IMG/VR virus record: IMGVR_UViG_2563366941_000005
Strand: one strand, 5' to 3'
From: a virus
Lineage: Duplodnaviria > Heunggongvirae > Uroviricota > Caudoviricetes
DNA: 34,670 bases
Under the pieces are notes generated by a model that saw only the letters and a list, made by a program, of their open reading frames with translations, was not told where the DNA came from and did no database searches. The position numbers and the translations under genes were made by a program. Below, piece by piece: positions 15,310 through 19,245 of this stretch (position 1 is its first letter; the number at the start of each line of letters is the position of its first letter).

Positions 15310-15326
15310 TTTTGTGGAGAAAGTTG

Positions 15327-15698
15327 ATGCGTGATATTCAAATGGTTCTTGAACGTTGGGGGGCATGGGTGGCAAATAATCACGAGGATGTGGAATGGTC
15401 ATCTGTTGCTGCAGGTTTTAAGGGATTAATTCCTTCGAAAGTAAAATCCCGCCCGCAATGTAGCGATGACGATGGCCTGATCATTAGCTCTGCGATGACA
15501 GTTCTTAAGAAAAAGGAACCGTATCAATACGAATTACTGGAAATGTATTATGTGTATGGGGTTACATTACGGGTGTTGGGGGTAAAACTGGGGATATCAC
15601 TTAATCAGGTTGTTATCAGACTGCAGAAAGCTGAAGGGTTTATTGACGGTTGTCTGGCAATGTTGGGGGTATCTTTAGAAATTGATTGTTACATATAG
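15327..15698 (+). CDS. Q: Late-gene antiterminator Q
   Basis: MRDIQMVLERWGAWV N-terminus typical of the phage antitermination Q family; GGAG SD; immediately upstream of the late region. Confidence 0.7.
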   Translation: MRDIQMVLERWGAWVANNHEDVEWSSVAAGFKGLIPSKVKSRPQCSDDDGLIISSAMTVLKKKEPYQYELLEMYYVYGVTLRVLGVKLGISLNQVVIRLQKAEGFIDGCLAMLGVSLEIDCYI

Positions 15699-15817
15699 TA
15701 ATAAATTCAATCAAAGTAAATAATCATATTTTATTATAACCTCCTGATGATACCTGTTCATTGGTGATGCTGCCAACTTACTGATTTAGTGTATGATGGT
15801 GTTTTTGAGGTGCTCCA

Positions 15818-16093
15818 GTGGCTTCTGTTTCTATCAGCTGTCCCTCCTGTTCAGCTACTGACGGGGTGGTGCGTAACGGCAAAAGCACCGCCGGACATCA
15901 GCGCTATCTCTGCTCTCACTGCCGTAAAACATGGCAACTGCAGTTCACTTACACCGCTTCTCAACCCGGTACGCACCAGAAAATCATTGATATGGCCATG
16001 AATGGCGTTGGATGCCGGGCAACAGCCCGCATTATGGGCGTTGGCCTCAACACGATTTTACGTCACTTAAAAAACTCAGGCCGCAGTCGGTAA
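15818..16093 (+). CDS. insA: IS1 InsA
   Basis: 91-aa [40 protein letters not shown]..., recognised as IS1 InsA. Confidence 0.95.
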
Positions 16094-16515
16094 CCTCGCG
16101 CATACAGCCGGGCAGTGACGTCATCGTCTGCGCGGAAATGGACGAACAGTGGGGCTATGTCGGGGCTAAATCGCGCCAGCGCTGGCTGTTTTACGCGTAT
16201 GACAGGCTCCGGAAGACGGTTGTTGCGCACGTATTCGGTGAACGCACTATGGCGACGCTGGGGCGTCTTATGAGCCTGCTGTCACCCTTTGACGTGGTGA
16301 TATGGATGACGGATGGCTGGCCGCTGTATGAATCCCGCCTGAAGGGAAAGCTGCACGTAATCAGCAAGCGATATACGCAGCGAATTGAGCGGCATAACCT
16401 GAATCTGAGGCAGCACCTGGCACGGCTGGGACGGAAGTCGCTGTCGTTCTCAAAATCGGTGGAGCTGCATGACAAAGTCATCGGGCATTATCTGAACATA
16501 AAACACTATCAATAA
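16012..16515 (+). CDS. insB: IS1 InsB reading frame (transposase made as InsAB-prime by -1 frameshift)
   Basis: 167-aa frame; A6C slippery motif TTAAAAAACTC at about 16066-16076 in the insA/insB overlap. Confidence 0.9.
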
Positions 16516-16551
16516 GTTGGAGTCATTACCCCTGTTCATTGGGAGGTTATT

Positions 16552-17169
16552 ATGGATAAAAATGTAGAGCATGTATTAGTTGATGCAATTGAAAATAAGC
16601 AATCTTTAACAGTCGTTTACTTAGGAGGGAGCCAGCCCGGAACATTAAGGAATATTTCTCCGATTAGTATAAATGGGGATAAATTGCGGGCAAGATGCCA
16701 TAGTTCTGGAGCAGTAAAGGTTTTCAATCTTGGGAAAATACAGTTACCCAGTGACTCCTGCGCGGTATCTATGCACTATGGAGATTTAGAAGTTAAAGCT
16801 TATGAGACGATGCAGAGCGTAAATGACAACTTTCATGCCCTTTATCCTGAAGGACGATGGGGTGTTGATTTTAATGAGCATCGCTTTGCTTTATTTGATT
16901 TTTTTAAAAACGGGAAACGAAAAAAAACGGCATTTATGGCAATTGAGTTCAGGGAAAGAGATGAAGAGAAAATAATAACAGGTGTAACAATTGATATTGG
17001 TATATCTGGAACAGTGATTTCTGAGAAGTCCCGAATCCCAAAAAGACGACCATGGGTAGTGGTTGGTCCCGAACACGGAGAATACAGTACTTATTCAACT
17101 TTGGACAAGGCTGCTACAGCGTTTTTTGAGAGGCTTTCGTTGATAGCATCCGGCCTGGAAGATAATTGA
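16552..17169 (+). CDS. Hypothetical moron protein (205 aa), unknown function
   Basis: AT-rich ORF with GGGAGG SD directly abutting the IS1 right end; followed by its own intrinsic terminator; no recognisable motif. Confidence 0.6.
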   Translation: MDKNVEHVLVDAIENKQSLTVVYLGGSQPGTLRNISPISINGDKLRARCHSSGAVKVFNLGKIQLPSDSCAVSMHYGDLEVKAYETMQSVNDNFHALYPEGRWGVDFNEHRFALFDFFKNGKRKKTAFMAIEFRERDEEKIITGVTIDIGISGTVISEKSRIPKRRPWVVVGPEHGEYSTYSTLDKAATAFFERLSLIASGLEDN

Positions 17170-17298
17170 TTTTATGTTTGGTATTCAGAGTTCGCCGTGC
17201 TTAAGAAAGTCAAGATTCTAAAAATACTGAATGAGCTACTTGTGTTATAACAAAAATGCTATTAGTGTGTTAAGAGTGGTTACTTCGCCACACAACTT

Positions 17299-17325
17299 AA
17301 ACCCGCCACTGAGCGGGTTTTTTGT
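17299..17325 (+). terminator. Rho-independent terminator after the 205-aa ORF
   Basis: Stem ACCCGC, loop CACTGA, stem GCGGGT, then TTTTTT. Confidence 0.7.
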
Positions 17326-17447: not shown

Positions 17448-17645
17448 ATGCTGAAACAGCAGGATATGACAGAAACCGCCAGAGTTGTGTTTGATGAATT
17501 AAGCGTTACCGAACCGGCGACAGTCGGGGAGATTGCGCAGAATACTTACCTTTCACGCGAACGCTGCCAGTTAATACTGACCCAGCTTGTTATGGCGGGT
17601 CTGGCAGACTATCAGTGCGGTTGTTACAGACGCCTTCAGTCCTGA
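17448..17645 (+). CDS. Small winged-helix DNA-binding protein (65 aa)
   Basis: HTH-like segment TVGEIAQNTYLSRERCQLILTQLVMAGL; AT-rich context upstream of the AraC-like gene. Confidence 0.45.
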   Translation: MLKQQDMTETARVVFDELSVTEPATVGEIAQNTYLSRERCQLILTQLVMAGLADYQCGCYRRLQS

Positions 17646-17779: not shown

Positions 17780-18493
17780 ATGGCTGTTGTCTGTTCAGTT
17801 ATCATGGTTTGCTCCCCAATTAATATTTTTCTTGAAAAGGATACGTTGTCACTTAAGCCAGGCTCAGTTGTTCTGGCCACCAAATGCATCAGGGAGCTTT
17901 TCCTTATGCATTATGGCAAAGTTAAAATTGTCGATATAAGCGAATCCGTCGTAAGTCAATATCTGGAAAGTCAGCATAAGCTGACGAGGACTCGTCTGAC
18001 TGACATTCCGCTTTACCTGTTGCTGGAACCCAACAATCCTGCGTTGGCTGCGGCTTTAATTACCAGCCAGGGATTTTCCGGAGAGGCCACGGATATGTTT
18101 CTTATGATGGCCTGCCTGTCTCTGTTTGAAACAGATGAACGGATGTCATTGTTTTTAAGTGGATGTTTATCCAGCATAAGTGCCAAAGTCAGGGCGATAA
18201 TTCAGACAGATATATCAGCAAGCTGGACGCTTGGTGCGATTGCTCTACAGTTGCATATGAGTGAGAGTTTGTTAAAGACAAAACTGAAAAATGAAGGGGG
18301 CATGTTCAGTCGCTTGTTGCTGGAAGAGCGGATGCGTGTTGCTGTAAATATGTTATGTTCCCGGCATGGATATGGACAGGCTATAGCAGAAAAATGCGGT
18401 TATTCAAGCAGGTCCTACTTTATTTCTGTATTTCACCGCTATTATGGCTTCCCGCCAGACAGATATGTATCCAGGCAAGGGCTTGATTATTGA
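17780..18493 (+). CDS. AraC-family transcriptional regulator
   Basis: C-terminal AraC-type HTH (WTLGAIALQLHMSESLLKTKLK ... GYSSRSYFISVFHRYYGFPP); low GC; start codon uncertain. Confidence 0.8.
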   Translation: MAVVCSVIMVCSPINIFLEKDTLSLKPGSVVLATKCIRELFLMHYGKVKIVDISESVVSQYLESQHKLTRTRLTDIPLYLLLEPNNPALAAALITSQGFSGEATDMFLMMACLSLFETDERMSLFLSGCLSSISAKVRAIIQTDISASWTLGAIALQLHMSESLLKTKLKNEGGMFSRLLLEERMRVAVNMLCSRHGYGQAIAEKCGYSSRSYFISVFHRYYGFPPDRYVSRQGLDY

Positions 18494-18521: not shown

Positions 18522-18597
18522 GGCCCTTTAGCTCAGTGGTGAGAGCGAGCGACTCATAATCGCCAGGTCGCTGGTTCAAATCCAGCAAGGGCCACCA
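18522..18597 (+). tRNA. tRNA with CAU anticodon (Ile2-lysidine type, ileX/ileZ-like; could be scored as Met)
   Basis: 76-nt cloverleaf: acceptor GGCCCTT/AAGGGCC, D arm GCTC/GAGC, anticodon loop CTCATAA, T loop TTCAAAT, encoded CCA. Confidence 0.85.
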
Positions 18598-18604
18598 TCA
18601 CATA

Positions 18605-18681
18605 CCGCCATTAGCTCATCAGGAAAGAGCGCCAGCCTTCGAAGCTGGTTGCGCGGAGTTCGGGTCCCCGAAGGCGGTTCA
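18605..18681 (+). tRNA. tRNA-Arg-like (anticodon UCG), noncanonical
   Basis: D arm GCTC/GAGC, anticodon stem CCAGC/GCTGG with loop CTTCGAA, T loop TTCGGGT; one acceptor and one T-stem mismatch; 3-prime end TCA instead of CCA. Confidence 0.55.
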
Positions 18682-18694
18682 TTATCTGTATCCT

Positions 18695-18771
18695 GCGTTG
18701 TTAGCTCAGCCGGACAGAGCAATTGCCTTCTAAGCAATCGGTCACTGGTTCGAATACAGTAGAACGCGCCA
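18695..18771 (+). tRNA. tRNA-Arg (anticodon UCU)
   Basis: Acceptor GCGTTGT, D arm GCTC/GAGC, anticodon stem ATTGC/GCAAT with loop CTTCTAA, T loop TTCGAAT, encoded CCA; one acceptor mismatch and a G/A at the T-stem closing pair. Confidence 0.65.
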
Positions 18772-18810: not shown

Positions 18811-19245
18811 AAATGTCTCACAATTCAGGCGGTTGACTGTTGTCTGGTTTGCGGGGAGTTTGTTAAAAGAAACTGGCATGGTGAATCCCCCTGTGCGGAG
18901 GGGCAATCAGCGAGTAGGTATATGGGATAATCGCGGATTCAGGTGCTGGTACTGAATTCACCGGGAGGCACCCGGCACCATGCAATGGCACATAGTGCCA
19001 CTCTCCAGCCCCTCTCCGGAGGGGCTTTCTTGTGGGCAAAAAAAAGCCCGAGTGGGTTCGGGCAACAGCATGAGATATACATTTTTATAATCGAATGGAT
19101 TTTAACCAGAATTCATAAGGCTGCGCAACTGCGCGGTCTTTTTCGAATTGCGGGCTGTCGTCTCTCTTCTGCCATTGTCCTGTAACTTCCGGACTTCAGC
19201 CCGCTCCTTATTTTACTCACAATATTATCCCGGCCGGGAGGATTC

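What the first reader, a model, noticed from the sequence alone, without database searches (positions are those of the whole stretch)
16552..17325. Low-GC moron ORF of unknown function in the Q-to-lysis hotspot, immediately behind IS1
A 205-aa ORF with a strong SD and its own intrinsic terminator sits where lambdoid phages carry cargo (stx, defence or virulence genes) downstream of Q. It is markedly AT-richer than the phage backbone and I recognise no motif in it. A self-contained gene at this locus is a candidate single-gene anti-phage defence or host-modulating factor.
Basis: inference. Interest (0 to 1): 0.65.

Follow-up and report, generated by a model that had tools for sequence, protein, structure and literature searches.

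The report
Orphan WYL-domain gene behind phage Q
The ORF is a real, conserved prophage cargo gene for a small protein that probably binds single-stranded DNA or RNA; it belongs to a large family nobody has studied, found in prophages and anti-phage defence islands, and its function is still untested.

Summary
ORF 16552-17169 (205 aa) is intact, AT-rich (39.6% GC against 50.4% for the window), under purifying selection (dN/dS 0.21 between two E. coli alleles), and starts 21 nt after a complete IS1.

It does carry a motif. Residues ~8-64 form a WYL (Sm-like) domain that keeps the Tyr/Ser/Arg residues with which DriD contacts ssDNA phosphates. Residues 87-204 form a family-specific alpha/beta domain with a basic RKRxRPW loop and no detectable relative.

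The family has about 950 clusters (50% identity). Nearly all members are ~195 aa stand-alone proteins with no HTH, no WCX domain and no conserved partner gene. They lie in prophage immunity regions, an ICE, and defence islands beside PDC-S06, PDC-S73, dGTPase, PDC-S31 and Old/GajA.

In E. coli (73 of 5426 complete genomes) the gene is always locked between one Q allele and what is probably that Q's own late promoter and tR'. So it sits upstream of pR', unlike stx, and "its" terminator is the phage backbone's.

A conserved -19.5 kcal/mol hairpin buries its Shine-Dalgarno sequence. In this window IS1 separates the two arms.

Best reading: a non-enzymatic sensor or binder of single-stranded nucleic acid acting in phage-host conflict. 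Whether it defends or counter-defends is unresolved.

The parts
16552..17169 (+). Gene for a 205-aa stand-alone WYL-domain protein (identical to RefSeq WP_000360285.1)
   Evidence: ORF. Annotated 'WYL domain-containing protein' or 'hypothetical protein' in S88 and others. dN/dS 0.21 between alleles. Family of 954 cluster representatives.
16573..16743 (+). N-terminal WYL (Sm-like SH3 barrel) domain, aa ~8-64, with Y23, S27, R33, R48, C49, K56 and K62
16810..17163 (+). C-terminal family-specific alpha-beta5-alpha domain, aa 87-204 (motifs GW, FKNGK, RKRxRPW; long terminal helix; E. coli-specific low-confidence insert at aa ~134-165)
16536..16549 (+). Right arm of the leader hairpin, containing the Shine-Dalgarno sequence GGGAGG (16541-16546)
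   Evidence: In IS-free prophages this arm pairs with the left arm in a 14-bp stem (dG -19.5 kcal/mol, z -4.5). The stem is kept in all five intact IS-free allele variants seen, by wobble-to-Watson-Crick changes.
15737..15750 (+). Left (anti-SD) arm of the same hairpin, now 786 nt upstream because of IS1
   Evidence: Window compared with S88. The window's own leader no longer folds over the SD (dG -7.5 kcal/mol, z +1.9).
15763..16530 (+). IS1 (768 bp), inserted between the hairpin arms; target duplication CCTGTTCATT at 15753-15762 and 16531-16540
   Evidence: None of the 51 allele-A genomes in the E. coli collection has IS1 here. Only IMG/VR contig L033 shares the insertion.
15312..15698 (+). 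Antiterminator Q gene (Q21/Q933W family, PF06530) whose 3' half is found only together with the ORF
   Evidence: Pfam E 1.5e-47. The family assignment of PF06530 follows 10.1101/651190. Q 3' half, spacer and ORF occur together in 73 of 75 matching genomes.
17240..17268 (+). Probable late promoter pR' with the Q-binding region: TTGTGT - 17 nt - TAGTGT (inferred)
   Evidence: At the same distance from the conserved leader, other prophages have TTTACG/TTTACA-16-TATGCT, TATCCT or TAATCT. The TAnnnT pattern is always kept, and the spacer type co-varies with the Q type. A lambda-Q-type prophage has a lambda-like pR' at this position. The consensus scan did not list the site.
17269..17324 (+). Conserved short leader plus intrinsic terminator (stem 17299-17306 / 17313-17320, then T-run): probable tR' of the backbone
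   Evidence: The fold gives -13.8 kcal/mol. The core 17268-17322 matches in 4389 of 5426 E. coli genomes, including DLP12 of K-12 upstream of essD.

Best explanation
The ORF encodes a two-domain, non-enzymatic protein that senses or binds single-stranded nucleic acid and is carried as cargo by mobile elements. The N-terminal WYL barrel binds ssDNA (possibly ssRNA) through the same Tyr/Ser/Arg phosphate contacts that DriD uses. The family-specific C-terminal domain, with its basic RKRxRPW loop and long terminal helix, adds a second nucleic-acid or partner contact and probably mediates dimerisation. The protein acts alone, without an HTH and without a partner gene, in phage-host conflict. I lean towards protection of the lysogen or host: superinfection exclusion or an abortive response triggered by the ssDNA of an invading or replicating phage. 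In E. coli lambdoid prophages the gene is trapped between Q and Q's cognate pR'/tR', and a stable hairpin over its Shine-Dalgarno sequence keeps translation low. In this window IS1 has separated the hairpin arms and cut the gene off from Q. Shown: gene reality, the WYL fold and motif, the family and its contexts, the linkage to Q, the hairpin, and the IS1 geometry. Inferred: ligand, mode of action, direction of the conflict role, and the pR'/tR' assignment.
Against: There are no functional data of any kind. The protein matches no known defence family. The C-terminal domain has no informative relative, so the effector step is a guess. In E. coli the gene follows Q directly, with no convincing sigma-70 promoter of its own. 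That suggests co-transcription with Q during lytic growth, which fits a counter-defence or lytic-phase role at least as well. Other cargo in the same Q-pR' slot (CPBP, lipoprotein, porin, ORF6N) gives no significant PADLOC hit, apart from a marginal PDC-S05 match for the ORF6N protein (E 6.5e-5). Some relatives lie in arrays of small unknown genes with SUKH immunity proteins, which hints at other roles. Inter-domain geometry in the model is uncertain (pTM 0.58).
Confidence: 0.4

Rival explanations
1. Counter-defence or lytic-phase helper. The protein is made with Q from the delayed-early transcript. It coats or sequesters phage ssDNA intermediates, or short ssDNA signals. Host sensors that respond to ssDNA (WYL repressors such as CapW or BrxR that derepress CBASS or BREX, or other ssDNA-triggered systems) would then not be activated.
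For: The gene lies directly after Q, with no strong promoter of its own, and upstream of pR'. The WYL domain is of the same ssDNA-binding type as CapW and DriD (PMC11662680 abstract). In phage contig L070 it is the second gene of an early operon. A distant member occurs in a 209-kb cyanophage.
Against: It is almost absent from sequenced phage genomes (2 of 50,697). It is present in chromosomal defence islands of Bacteroidota and other bacteria, away from phage genes. In L075 it is an independent unit next to the repressor. The buried SD argues for restrained rather than massive expression.
Confidence: 0.2
2. Prophage-internal regulator. The protein is a DNA-damage (ssDNA) sensor that tunes the lysis-lysogeny switch or the Q/pR' late switch by binding a phage regulator or the paused late transcription complex, independently of RecA and LexA.
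For: All characterised ssDNA-binding WYL proteins couple DNA damage to regulation. The gene sits next to the repressor/Cro region in four phages and between Q and pR' in E. coli, strictly linked to one Q type. It is followed by rha in two phage contigs.
Against: The same family occurs in non-phage islands and an ICE with no phage regulators nearby. The linkage to Q is explained more simply by hitch-hiking between Q and its cognate promoter. There is no DNA-binding HTH.
Confidence: 0.1
3. Hfq-like RNA-binding accessory protein that acts on prophage or host small RNAs, or a cargo gene with some other role unrelated to phage conflict.
Against: The closest sequence and structure matches are the ssDNA-binding WYL domains, not Hfq. 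There is no evidence for a hexameric ring. The recurring defence-island and immunity-region contexts point to conflict.
Confidence: 0.1

Closest known systems
DriD, PafBC, CapW and BrxR (HTH-WYL-WCX transcription factors that sense ssDNA)
   Different: There is no N-terminal (w)HTH, because the barrel starts about 15 residues from the N-terminus. There is no ferredoxin-like WCX dimerisation domain: the C-terminal domain is alpha-beta5-alpha and unrelated by sequence. It is not placed next to an operon that it could regulate. It therefore cannot act as a transcription factor in the same way.
WYL1 (accessory protein of Cas13d) and WYL domains fused to helicases or nucleases
   Same: A WYL domain is used outside a classical transcription factor (architectures listed in PMC4012209).
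   Different: WYL1 has an RHH domain and works with Cas13d. Here there is no fused enzyme, no RHH domain and no cas neighbour.
Cargo ('moron') genes of the lambdoid late-region junction: stx downstream of pR'/tR', and lc/nmpC porin, CPBP and others between Q and the late leader
   Same: The same chromosomal neighbourhood. The slot between Q and the conserved leader holds different genes in different prophages: CPBP, a lipoprotein-like ORF, an ompC-like porin, an ORF6N protein, or nothing.
   Different: Unlike stx, it lies upstream of the probable pR'/tR', so Q antitermination would not control it. Unlike freely exchanging morons, it is fixed to one Q type.
Frataxin/CyaY fold (C-terminal domain only)
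   Different: The score is marginal, sequence identity is 8-15%, and there is no sequence-profile match. The conserved residues are basic rather than the acidic ridge typical of frataxin (own knowledge). I treat this as fold resemblance only.

Membership tests
WYL domain superfamily (Pfam PF13280) | Sm-like SH3 five-stranded beta-barrel fold | tested here: met
WYL domain superfamily (Pfam PF13280) | Sequence match to the Pfam WYL model at the gathering score | tested here: inconclusive
   The window protein scores 16.5 bits against a cut-off of 21.8 (E 0.0085). At family level, 72 of 105 members match at E<=0.5, best 4.8e-8. The family profile hits DriD chains at E 1.3e-4.
WYL domain superfamily (Pfam PF13280) | Conserved basic residues plus a frequent cysteine lining the ligand groove (Makarova et al. 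2014, PMC4012209) | tested here: met
   R33, R48, C49, K56 and K62 are conserved. Y23, G26, R33 and K56 are invariant in 105 sequences.
WYL domain superfamily (Pfam PF13280) | Binds a negatively charged ligand (ssDNA, ssRNA or nucleotide) | not testable with these tools
   Only inferred, from conservation of the equivalents of DriD Tyr168, Ser172 and Arg178.
HTH-WYL-WCX transcription regulators (PafBC, DriD, CapW, BrxR) | [quoted passage not shown] | tested here: not met
   Only a 12-residue helix precedes the barrel. There is no HTH hit in Pfam or NCBIfam.
HTH-WYL-WCX transcription regulators (PafBC, DriD, CapW, BrxR) | [quoted passage not shown] | tested here: not met
Known anti-phage defence systems (PADLOC-DB v2.0.0) | Significant match to a model of a known or candidate defence protein | tested here: not met
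   There are only two weak hits, to Cas-associated WYL models (E 0.0014 and 0.0066).
Classical phage moron (self-contained promoter-gene-terminator unit) | Own promoter and own terminator | tested here: inconclusive
   The scan lists no + strand promoter in the 75-bp spacer. Only a -10-like hexamer is present, at a conserved position (TATTAT, TATAAT or TACAGT). The terminator is the shared backbone terminator.
Q-dependent late-operon cargo (stx-type position) | Located downstream of pR' and tR', so expressed by Q antitermination | tested here: not met
   The probable pR' (17240-17268) and the terminator (17299-17324) lie downstream of the ORF. The assignment of pR' is an inference from comparative sequence, not from mapped transcripts.

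The most novel reading that the evidence does not exclude
The ~195-aa 'WYL plus C-domain' proteins are a new, widespread family of single-gene immune effectors. The WYL barrel detects phage single-stranded DNA directly. The previously unseen C-terminal domain then executes the response without any enzyme domain, for example by oligomerising on and blocking replication or recombination intermediates. The protein is toxic enough to need a translational lock, the SD-sequestering hairpin. The IS1 insertion in this window has opened that lock.
Probability: 0.2. Interest if true: 0.75.

Novelty: new variant of a known kind. Interest (0 to 1): 0.5.

Why it matters
Every WYL protein studied so far is either a transcription factor (HTH-WYL-WCX) or an accessory to an enzyme. 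A large family in which the ssDNA-sensing barrel is joined only to a small unknown domain, and which travels alone through prophages, ICEs and defence islands, would show a new way of turning 'ssDNA is present' into a biological output. It would also add either a single-gene defence or a counter-defence to the catalogue.

For lambdoid phage biology, the analysis separates two cargo positions that are usually lumped together. One lies between Q and pR' and is not Q-controlled. The other lies after tR' and is Q-controlled, like stx. The analysis also shows how a gene can become fixed by being caught between an antiterminator and its cognate promoter.

Tried and rejected
- **Sequence searches against curated libraries.** Pfam, NCBIfam, PHROGs and PADLOC gave only a weak WYL hit and PHROG families of unknown function.
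- **PDB by sequence.** The single protein found nothing. The family profile found only WYL domains. A profile of the C-terminal domain found nothing credible.
- **C-terminal domain as a second, degenerate WYL/Sm domain.** Rejected at the sequence level: hhalign probability below 1%.
- **C-terminal domain fused to other domains elsewhere.** Not found. All hits are members of the same ~195-aa family. The few longer members add only zinc ribbons, membrane anchors or unassigned sequence.
- **ORF between pR' and tR', expressed constitutively from pR'.** This was my first idea. I dropped it after comparing prophages that carry other Q types and other cargo.
- **Conserved leader as a known RNA family.** No Rfam match at threshold.
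- **Literature.** No paper mentions WP_000360285, a WYL protein next to an antiterminator, or a phage-encoded stand-alone WYL factor.
- **Broad alignment for locus retrieval.** A2 was too divergent for the search for related loci. The narrower alignment recovered only 7 genome loci.

Full report
**1. Observation**

It is preceded by GGGAGG at 16541-16546. It is AT-rich, at 39.6% GC (GC3 32%) against 50.4% for the window.

IS1 (768 bp, 15763-16530, insA/insB on the + strand) ends 21 nt before the ATG. It is flanked by a 10-bp duplication, CCTGTTCATT. A hairpin followed by a T-run lies at 17299-17324 (dG -13.8 kcal/mol).

The gene is real:
- The identical protein (RefSeq WP_000360285.1, labelled 'WYL domain-containing protein' or 'hypothetical protein') is on at least 1000 public contigs.
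- A second E. coli allele, 72% identical, gives dN/dS 0.21.
- An exhaustive profile search finds 954 cluster representatives (50% identity) at E<=1e-3 and 608 at E<=1e-10.

**2. What the protein is**

With a 105-sequence alignment, AlphaFold2 gives a confident two-domain model (pLDDT 86).

*Residues ~8-64: a WYL (Sm-like SH3) barrel.*
- 72 of 105 family members hit Pfam WYL, best E 4.8e-8. The window protein itself is below the gathering score.
- The family profile aligns its most conserved motif, Y-x-G-G-S-Q-P-G-x-x-R-x-I-x-P, to DriD's Y-E-G-G-S-T-P-G-R-T-R-E-V-T-P.
- In DriD crystal structures, Tyr168, Ser172 and Arg178 of that motif hydrogen-bond the phosphates of bound ssDNA (PMC9186387).
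- The equivalents here are Y23, S27 and R33. Y23 and R33 are invariant and S27 is at least 90% conserved.
- The 'basic residues plus cysteine' signature described for the superfamily (PMC4012209) is present as R33, R48, C49, K56 and K62.

*Residues 87-204: an alpha-beta5-alpha domain.*
- Conserved motifs are GW, FKNGK and a strongly basic RKRxRPW loop, followed by a long terminal helix.
- It has no Pfam match and no PDB relative by sequence profile.
- It has no similarity to the N-terminal half.
- It is never found without the WYL domain.

*What is absent.*
- There is no HTH.
- There is no ferredoxin-like WCX domain as defined for PafBC (PMC6789036).
- There is no enzyme domain.

More than 90% of WYL proteins carry an HTH. 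This is therefore an unusual and uncharacterised architecture.

**3. Where relatives live**

Members occur in Gamma- and Alphaproteobacteria, Flavobacterium and other Bacteroidota, and two sequenced phages. No neighbour is conserved.

| Context | Example |
|---|---|
| Prophage immunity region, next to Cro, repressor or the early-left operon | L070, L075, L066 |
| Between integrase and LexA-like repressor | Pseudoalteromonas phage PY3 (369-aa form) |
| After tail genes or terminase, followed by rha | L012, L068 |
| Before terminase | L081 |
| Large (209-kb) cyanophage, among hypothetical genes | Dolichospermum phage Dfl-JY45, L004 (183-aa form) |
| ICE | L074 |
| Defence island with PDC-S06 (E 2e-268) and PDC-S73 (E 6e-165) | L072 |
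| Defence island with dGTPase (E 2e-118), PDC-S31 and Old/GajA-like | L079 |
| Island with an IetA-like ATPase | L092 |
| Islets of small unknown genes, one with a SUKH immunity protein or a DUF2283 gene | L069, L077, L091 |

Only 2 of 50,697 sequenced phage genomes encode a relative.

**4. Local architecture in E. coli**

The gene is present in 73 of 5426 complete genomes. About 51 carry allele A and 22 carry allele B. In every case the order is DUF968 - Q - 75-91 nt - ORF - about 100 nt - conserved leader and terminator.

The 3' half of this Q type, the spacer and the ORF occur only together (73 of 75 matching genomes). The first ~150-175 nt of Q are shared with 778 genomes.

Downstream of the terminator the content varies. 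A 65-aa TrmB-like wHTH plus an AraC-like regulator plus tRNAs appears in about one third of loci, and other genes elsewhere.

The core 17268-17322 (leader plus terminator) is in 4389 of 5426 genomes. That includes DLP12 of K-12, 120 nt upstream of essD.

Immediately upstream of this core, all prophages examined carry a promoter-like element at the same register:
- TTGTGT-17-TAGTGT in the window (17240-17268)
- TTGTGT-17-TAATCT in allele B
- TTTACG or TTTACA-16-TATGCT or TATCCT in O157, Q5, SCU-125 and DLP12

The TAnnnT pattern is always kept. The spacer sequence co-varies with the Q type even though unrelated genes lie in between.

A prophage with a lambda-type Q has a lambda-like pR' about 60 nt before the homologous terminator, with no cargo in between. 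That promoter reads TTGATT-17-TAAATT followed by AACGAT. The resemblance to lambda pR' is from my own knowledge of the lambda sequence.

The canonical cassette is Q, then pR', a sigma-dependent pause element and a terminator, with the Q-binding element in the promoter region (10.1101/651190). I therefore infer two things:
- 17240-17324 is pR' plus a short leader plus tR'.
- The ORF occupies a cargo slot between Q and pR'.

In other prophages that slot holds a CPBP/Abi-like protease, a lipoprotein-like ORF on the other strand, an ompC/nmpC-type porin, an ORF6N protein, a two-gene pair, or nothing.

Two consequences follow. The gene is not in the stx position, so Q antitermination would not drive it. 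Its strict linkage to one Q type is explained by being caught between Q and Q's cognate promoter. These inferences rest on comparative sequence only. The promoter was not picked up by the consensus scan and no transcript data were available.

**5. Leader hairpin and IS1**

In IS-free prophages the 35 nt before the AUG fold into a 14-bp stem. It reads UAACCUCCUGAUGA / UCAUUGGGAGGUUA, with dG -19.5 kcal/mol and z -4.5, and it contains the whole Shine-Dalgarno sequence.

Five intact IS-free allele variants among about 50 loci all keep the stem. The differences between them preserve or strengthen pairing:
- U.G to C-G
- U.G and G.U to U-A and G-C
- C-G to U.G
- a T-to-A change that lengthens the stem

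The wobble pairs show that the constraint acts on RNA rather than DNA.

A -10-like hexamer (TATTAT, TATAAT or TACAGT) sits just upstream at a fixed position, but there is no convincing -35. It is open whether the gene has a weak promoter of its own or is read from the Q transcript.

In the window, IS1 is inserted after the fifth base of the right arm. The target duplication regenerates a complete right arm next to the SD. The anti-SD arm (15737-15750) is left 786 nt upstream, and the window's leader no longer folds over the SD (dG -7.5 kcal/mol, z +1.9). IS1 also separates Q from the ORF and from pR'.

Only one public viral contig (L033) shares this insertion, and none of the 51 complete allele-A genomes does. 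Other inactivating events exist: an IS5-sized insertion inside the ORF (L064) and a frameshift (L063).

**6. Mechanism**

The best-supported reading is a non-enzymatic protein that binds or senses single-stranded nucleic acid through the WYL barrel. The basic C-terminal domain would supply a second contact and probably dimerisation. The protein would act alone in conflicts between mobile elements, phages and hosts.

*Direction of the conflict role.*
- Defence islands, repressor-proximal positions and rarity in sequenced phage genomes favour protection of the lysogen or host.
- The position directly behind Q, with no clear promoter, favours a lytic-phase or counter-defence role.
- I put defence-type function at about 0.3 within an overall 0.4 for the general statement.
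- I put counter-defence at 0.2, a prophage-internal ssDNA-responsive regulator at 0.1, and an RNA-chaperone-like or other role at 0.1.
- The remainder is unassigned.

**7. Comparison and novelty**

The protein is a member of the WYL superfamily. The fold, the motif and the basic-plus-Cys signature are met. The Pfam score is met at family level only.

It is not a member of the HTH-WYL-WCX regulators (HTH and WCX tested, not met). It is not a member of any PADLOC family (tested, not met).

No paper or database entry assigns it a function. I classify it as a new variant of a known kind: a known sensor domain in an undescribed, widespread, stand-alone architecture.

Interest is moderate, at 0.5. 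The family is large, uncharacterised and well placed to be a conflict gene, and the Q-pR' slot and SD-lock features give concrete experiments. Nothing here demonstrates a phenotype, however.

Noticed in passing
window 15737-15762 and 16531-16549 (IS-free form: L001:8985-9040): A conserved 14-bp RNA hairpin (dG -19.5 kcal/mol) buries the ORF's Shine-Dalgarno sequence in IS-free prophages. IS1 in this window separates its two arms. Allele variants keep the stem through wobble-to-Watson-Crick changes.
   Followed up: partly
window 17240-17324: A promoter-like element, short leader and terminator whose core is present in 4389 of 5426 E. coli genomes, including DLP12 upstream of essD. It is probably the pR'/tR' late-switch cassette of many lambdoid prophages. 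Its predicted ~50-nt terminated RNA matches no Rfam family.
   Followed up: partly
window 18847-19037 (+) and 19041-19093 (-): Rfam matches to the sRNA STnc100 (137.8 bits, E 1.9e-31) and, on the opposite strand, to the anti-sRNA AsxR (63 bits, exactly the gathering score; also AgvB below threshold). They lie between the tRNA genes and the esterase gene.
   Followed up: no
window 17448-17645, 17780-18493, 18522-18771: A 65-aa TrmB-like winged-helix ORF, a 237-aa AraC-family regulator and three tRNA genes (Met-CAT, Arg-TCG, Arg-TCT) form a separate cassette downstream of the terminator. It is present in only about a third of the prophages that carry the WYL gene.
   Followed up: partly
window 15312-15698: The Q gene is mosaic. 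Its first ~150-175 nt are shared with 778 E. coli genomes, while its 3' part occurs only with the WYL gene (75 genomes).
   Followed up: partly
L064:4388-5831 and L063:4865-5483: Independent inactivations of the same gene in other E. coli prophages: an IS5-sized (~1.2 kb, 4-bp duplication) insertion inside the ORF, and a 1-nt frameshift.
   Followed up: partly
L087:61-2432 (strain 24AR0142): The same Q-pR' slot holds a minus-strand gene pair, a 408-aa hypothetical protein plus a 382-aa 'nucleoid-associated protein', with no PADLOC match. In O157:H7 the slot holds a CPBP/Abi-like intramembrane protease (L083:2575-3393).
   Followed up: partly
L012:8001-9667 and L068:5998-7687: In two phage contigs the WYL-family gene is followed about 270 nt later by a rha (Phage_pRha) gene, a possible recurrent pairing.
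   Followed up: no
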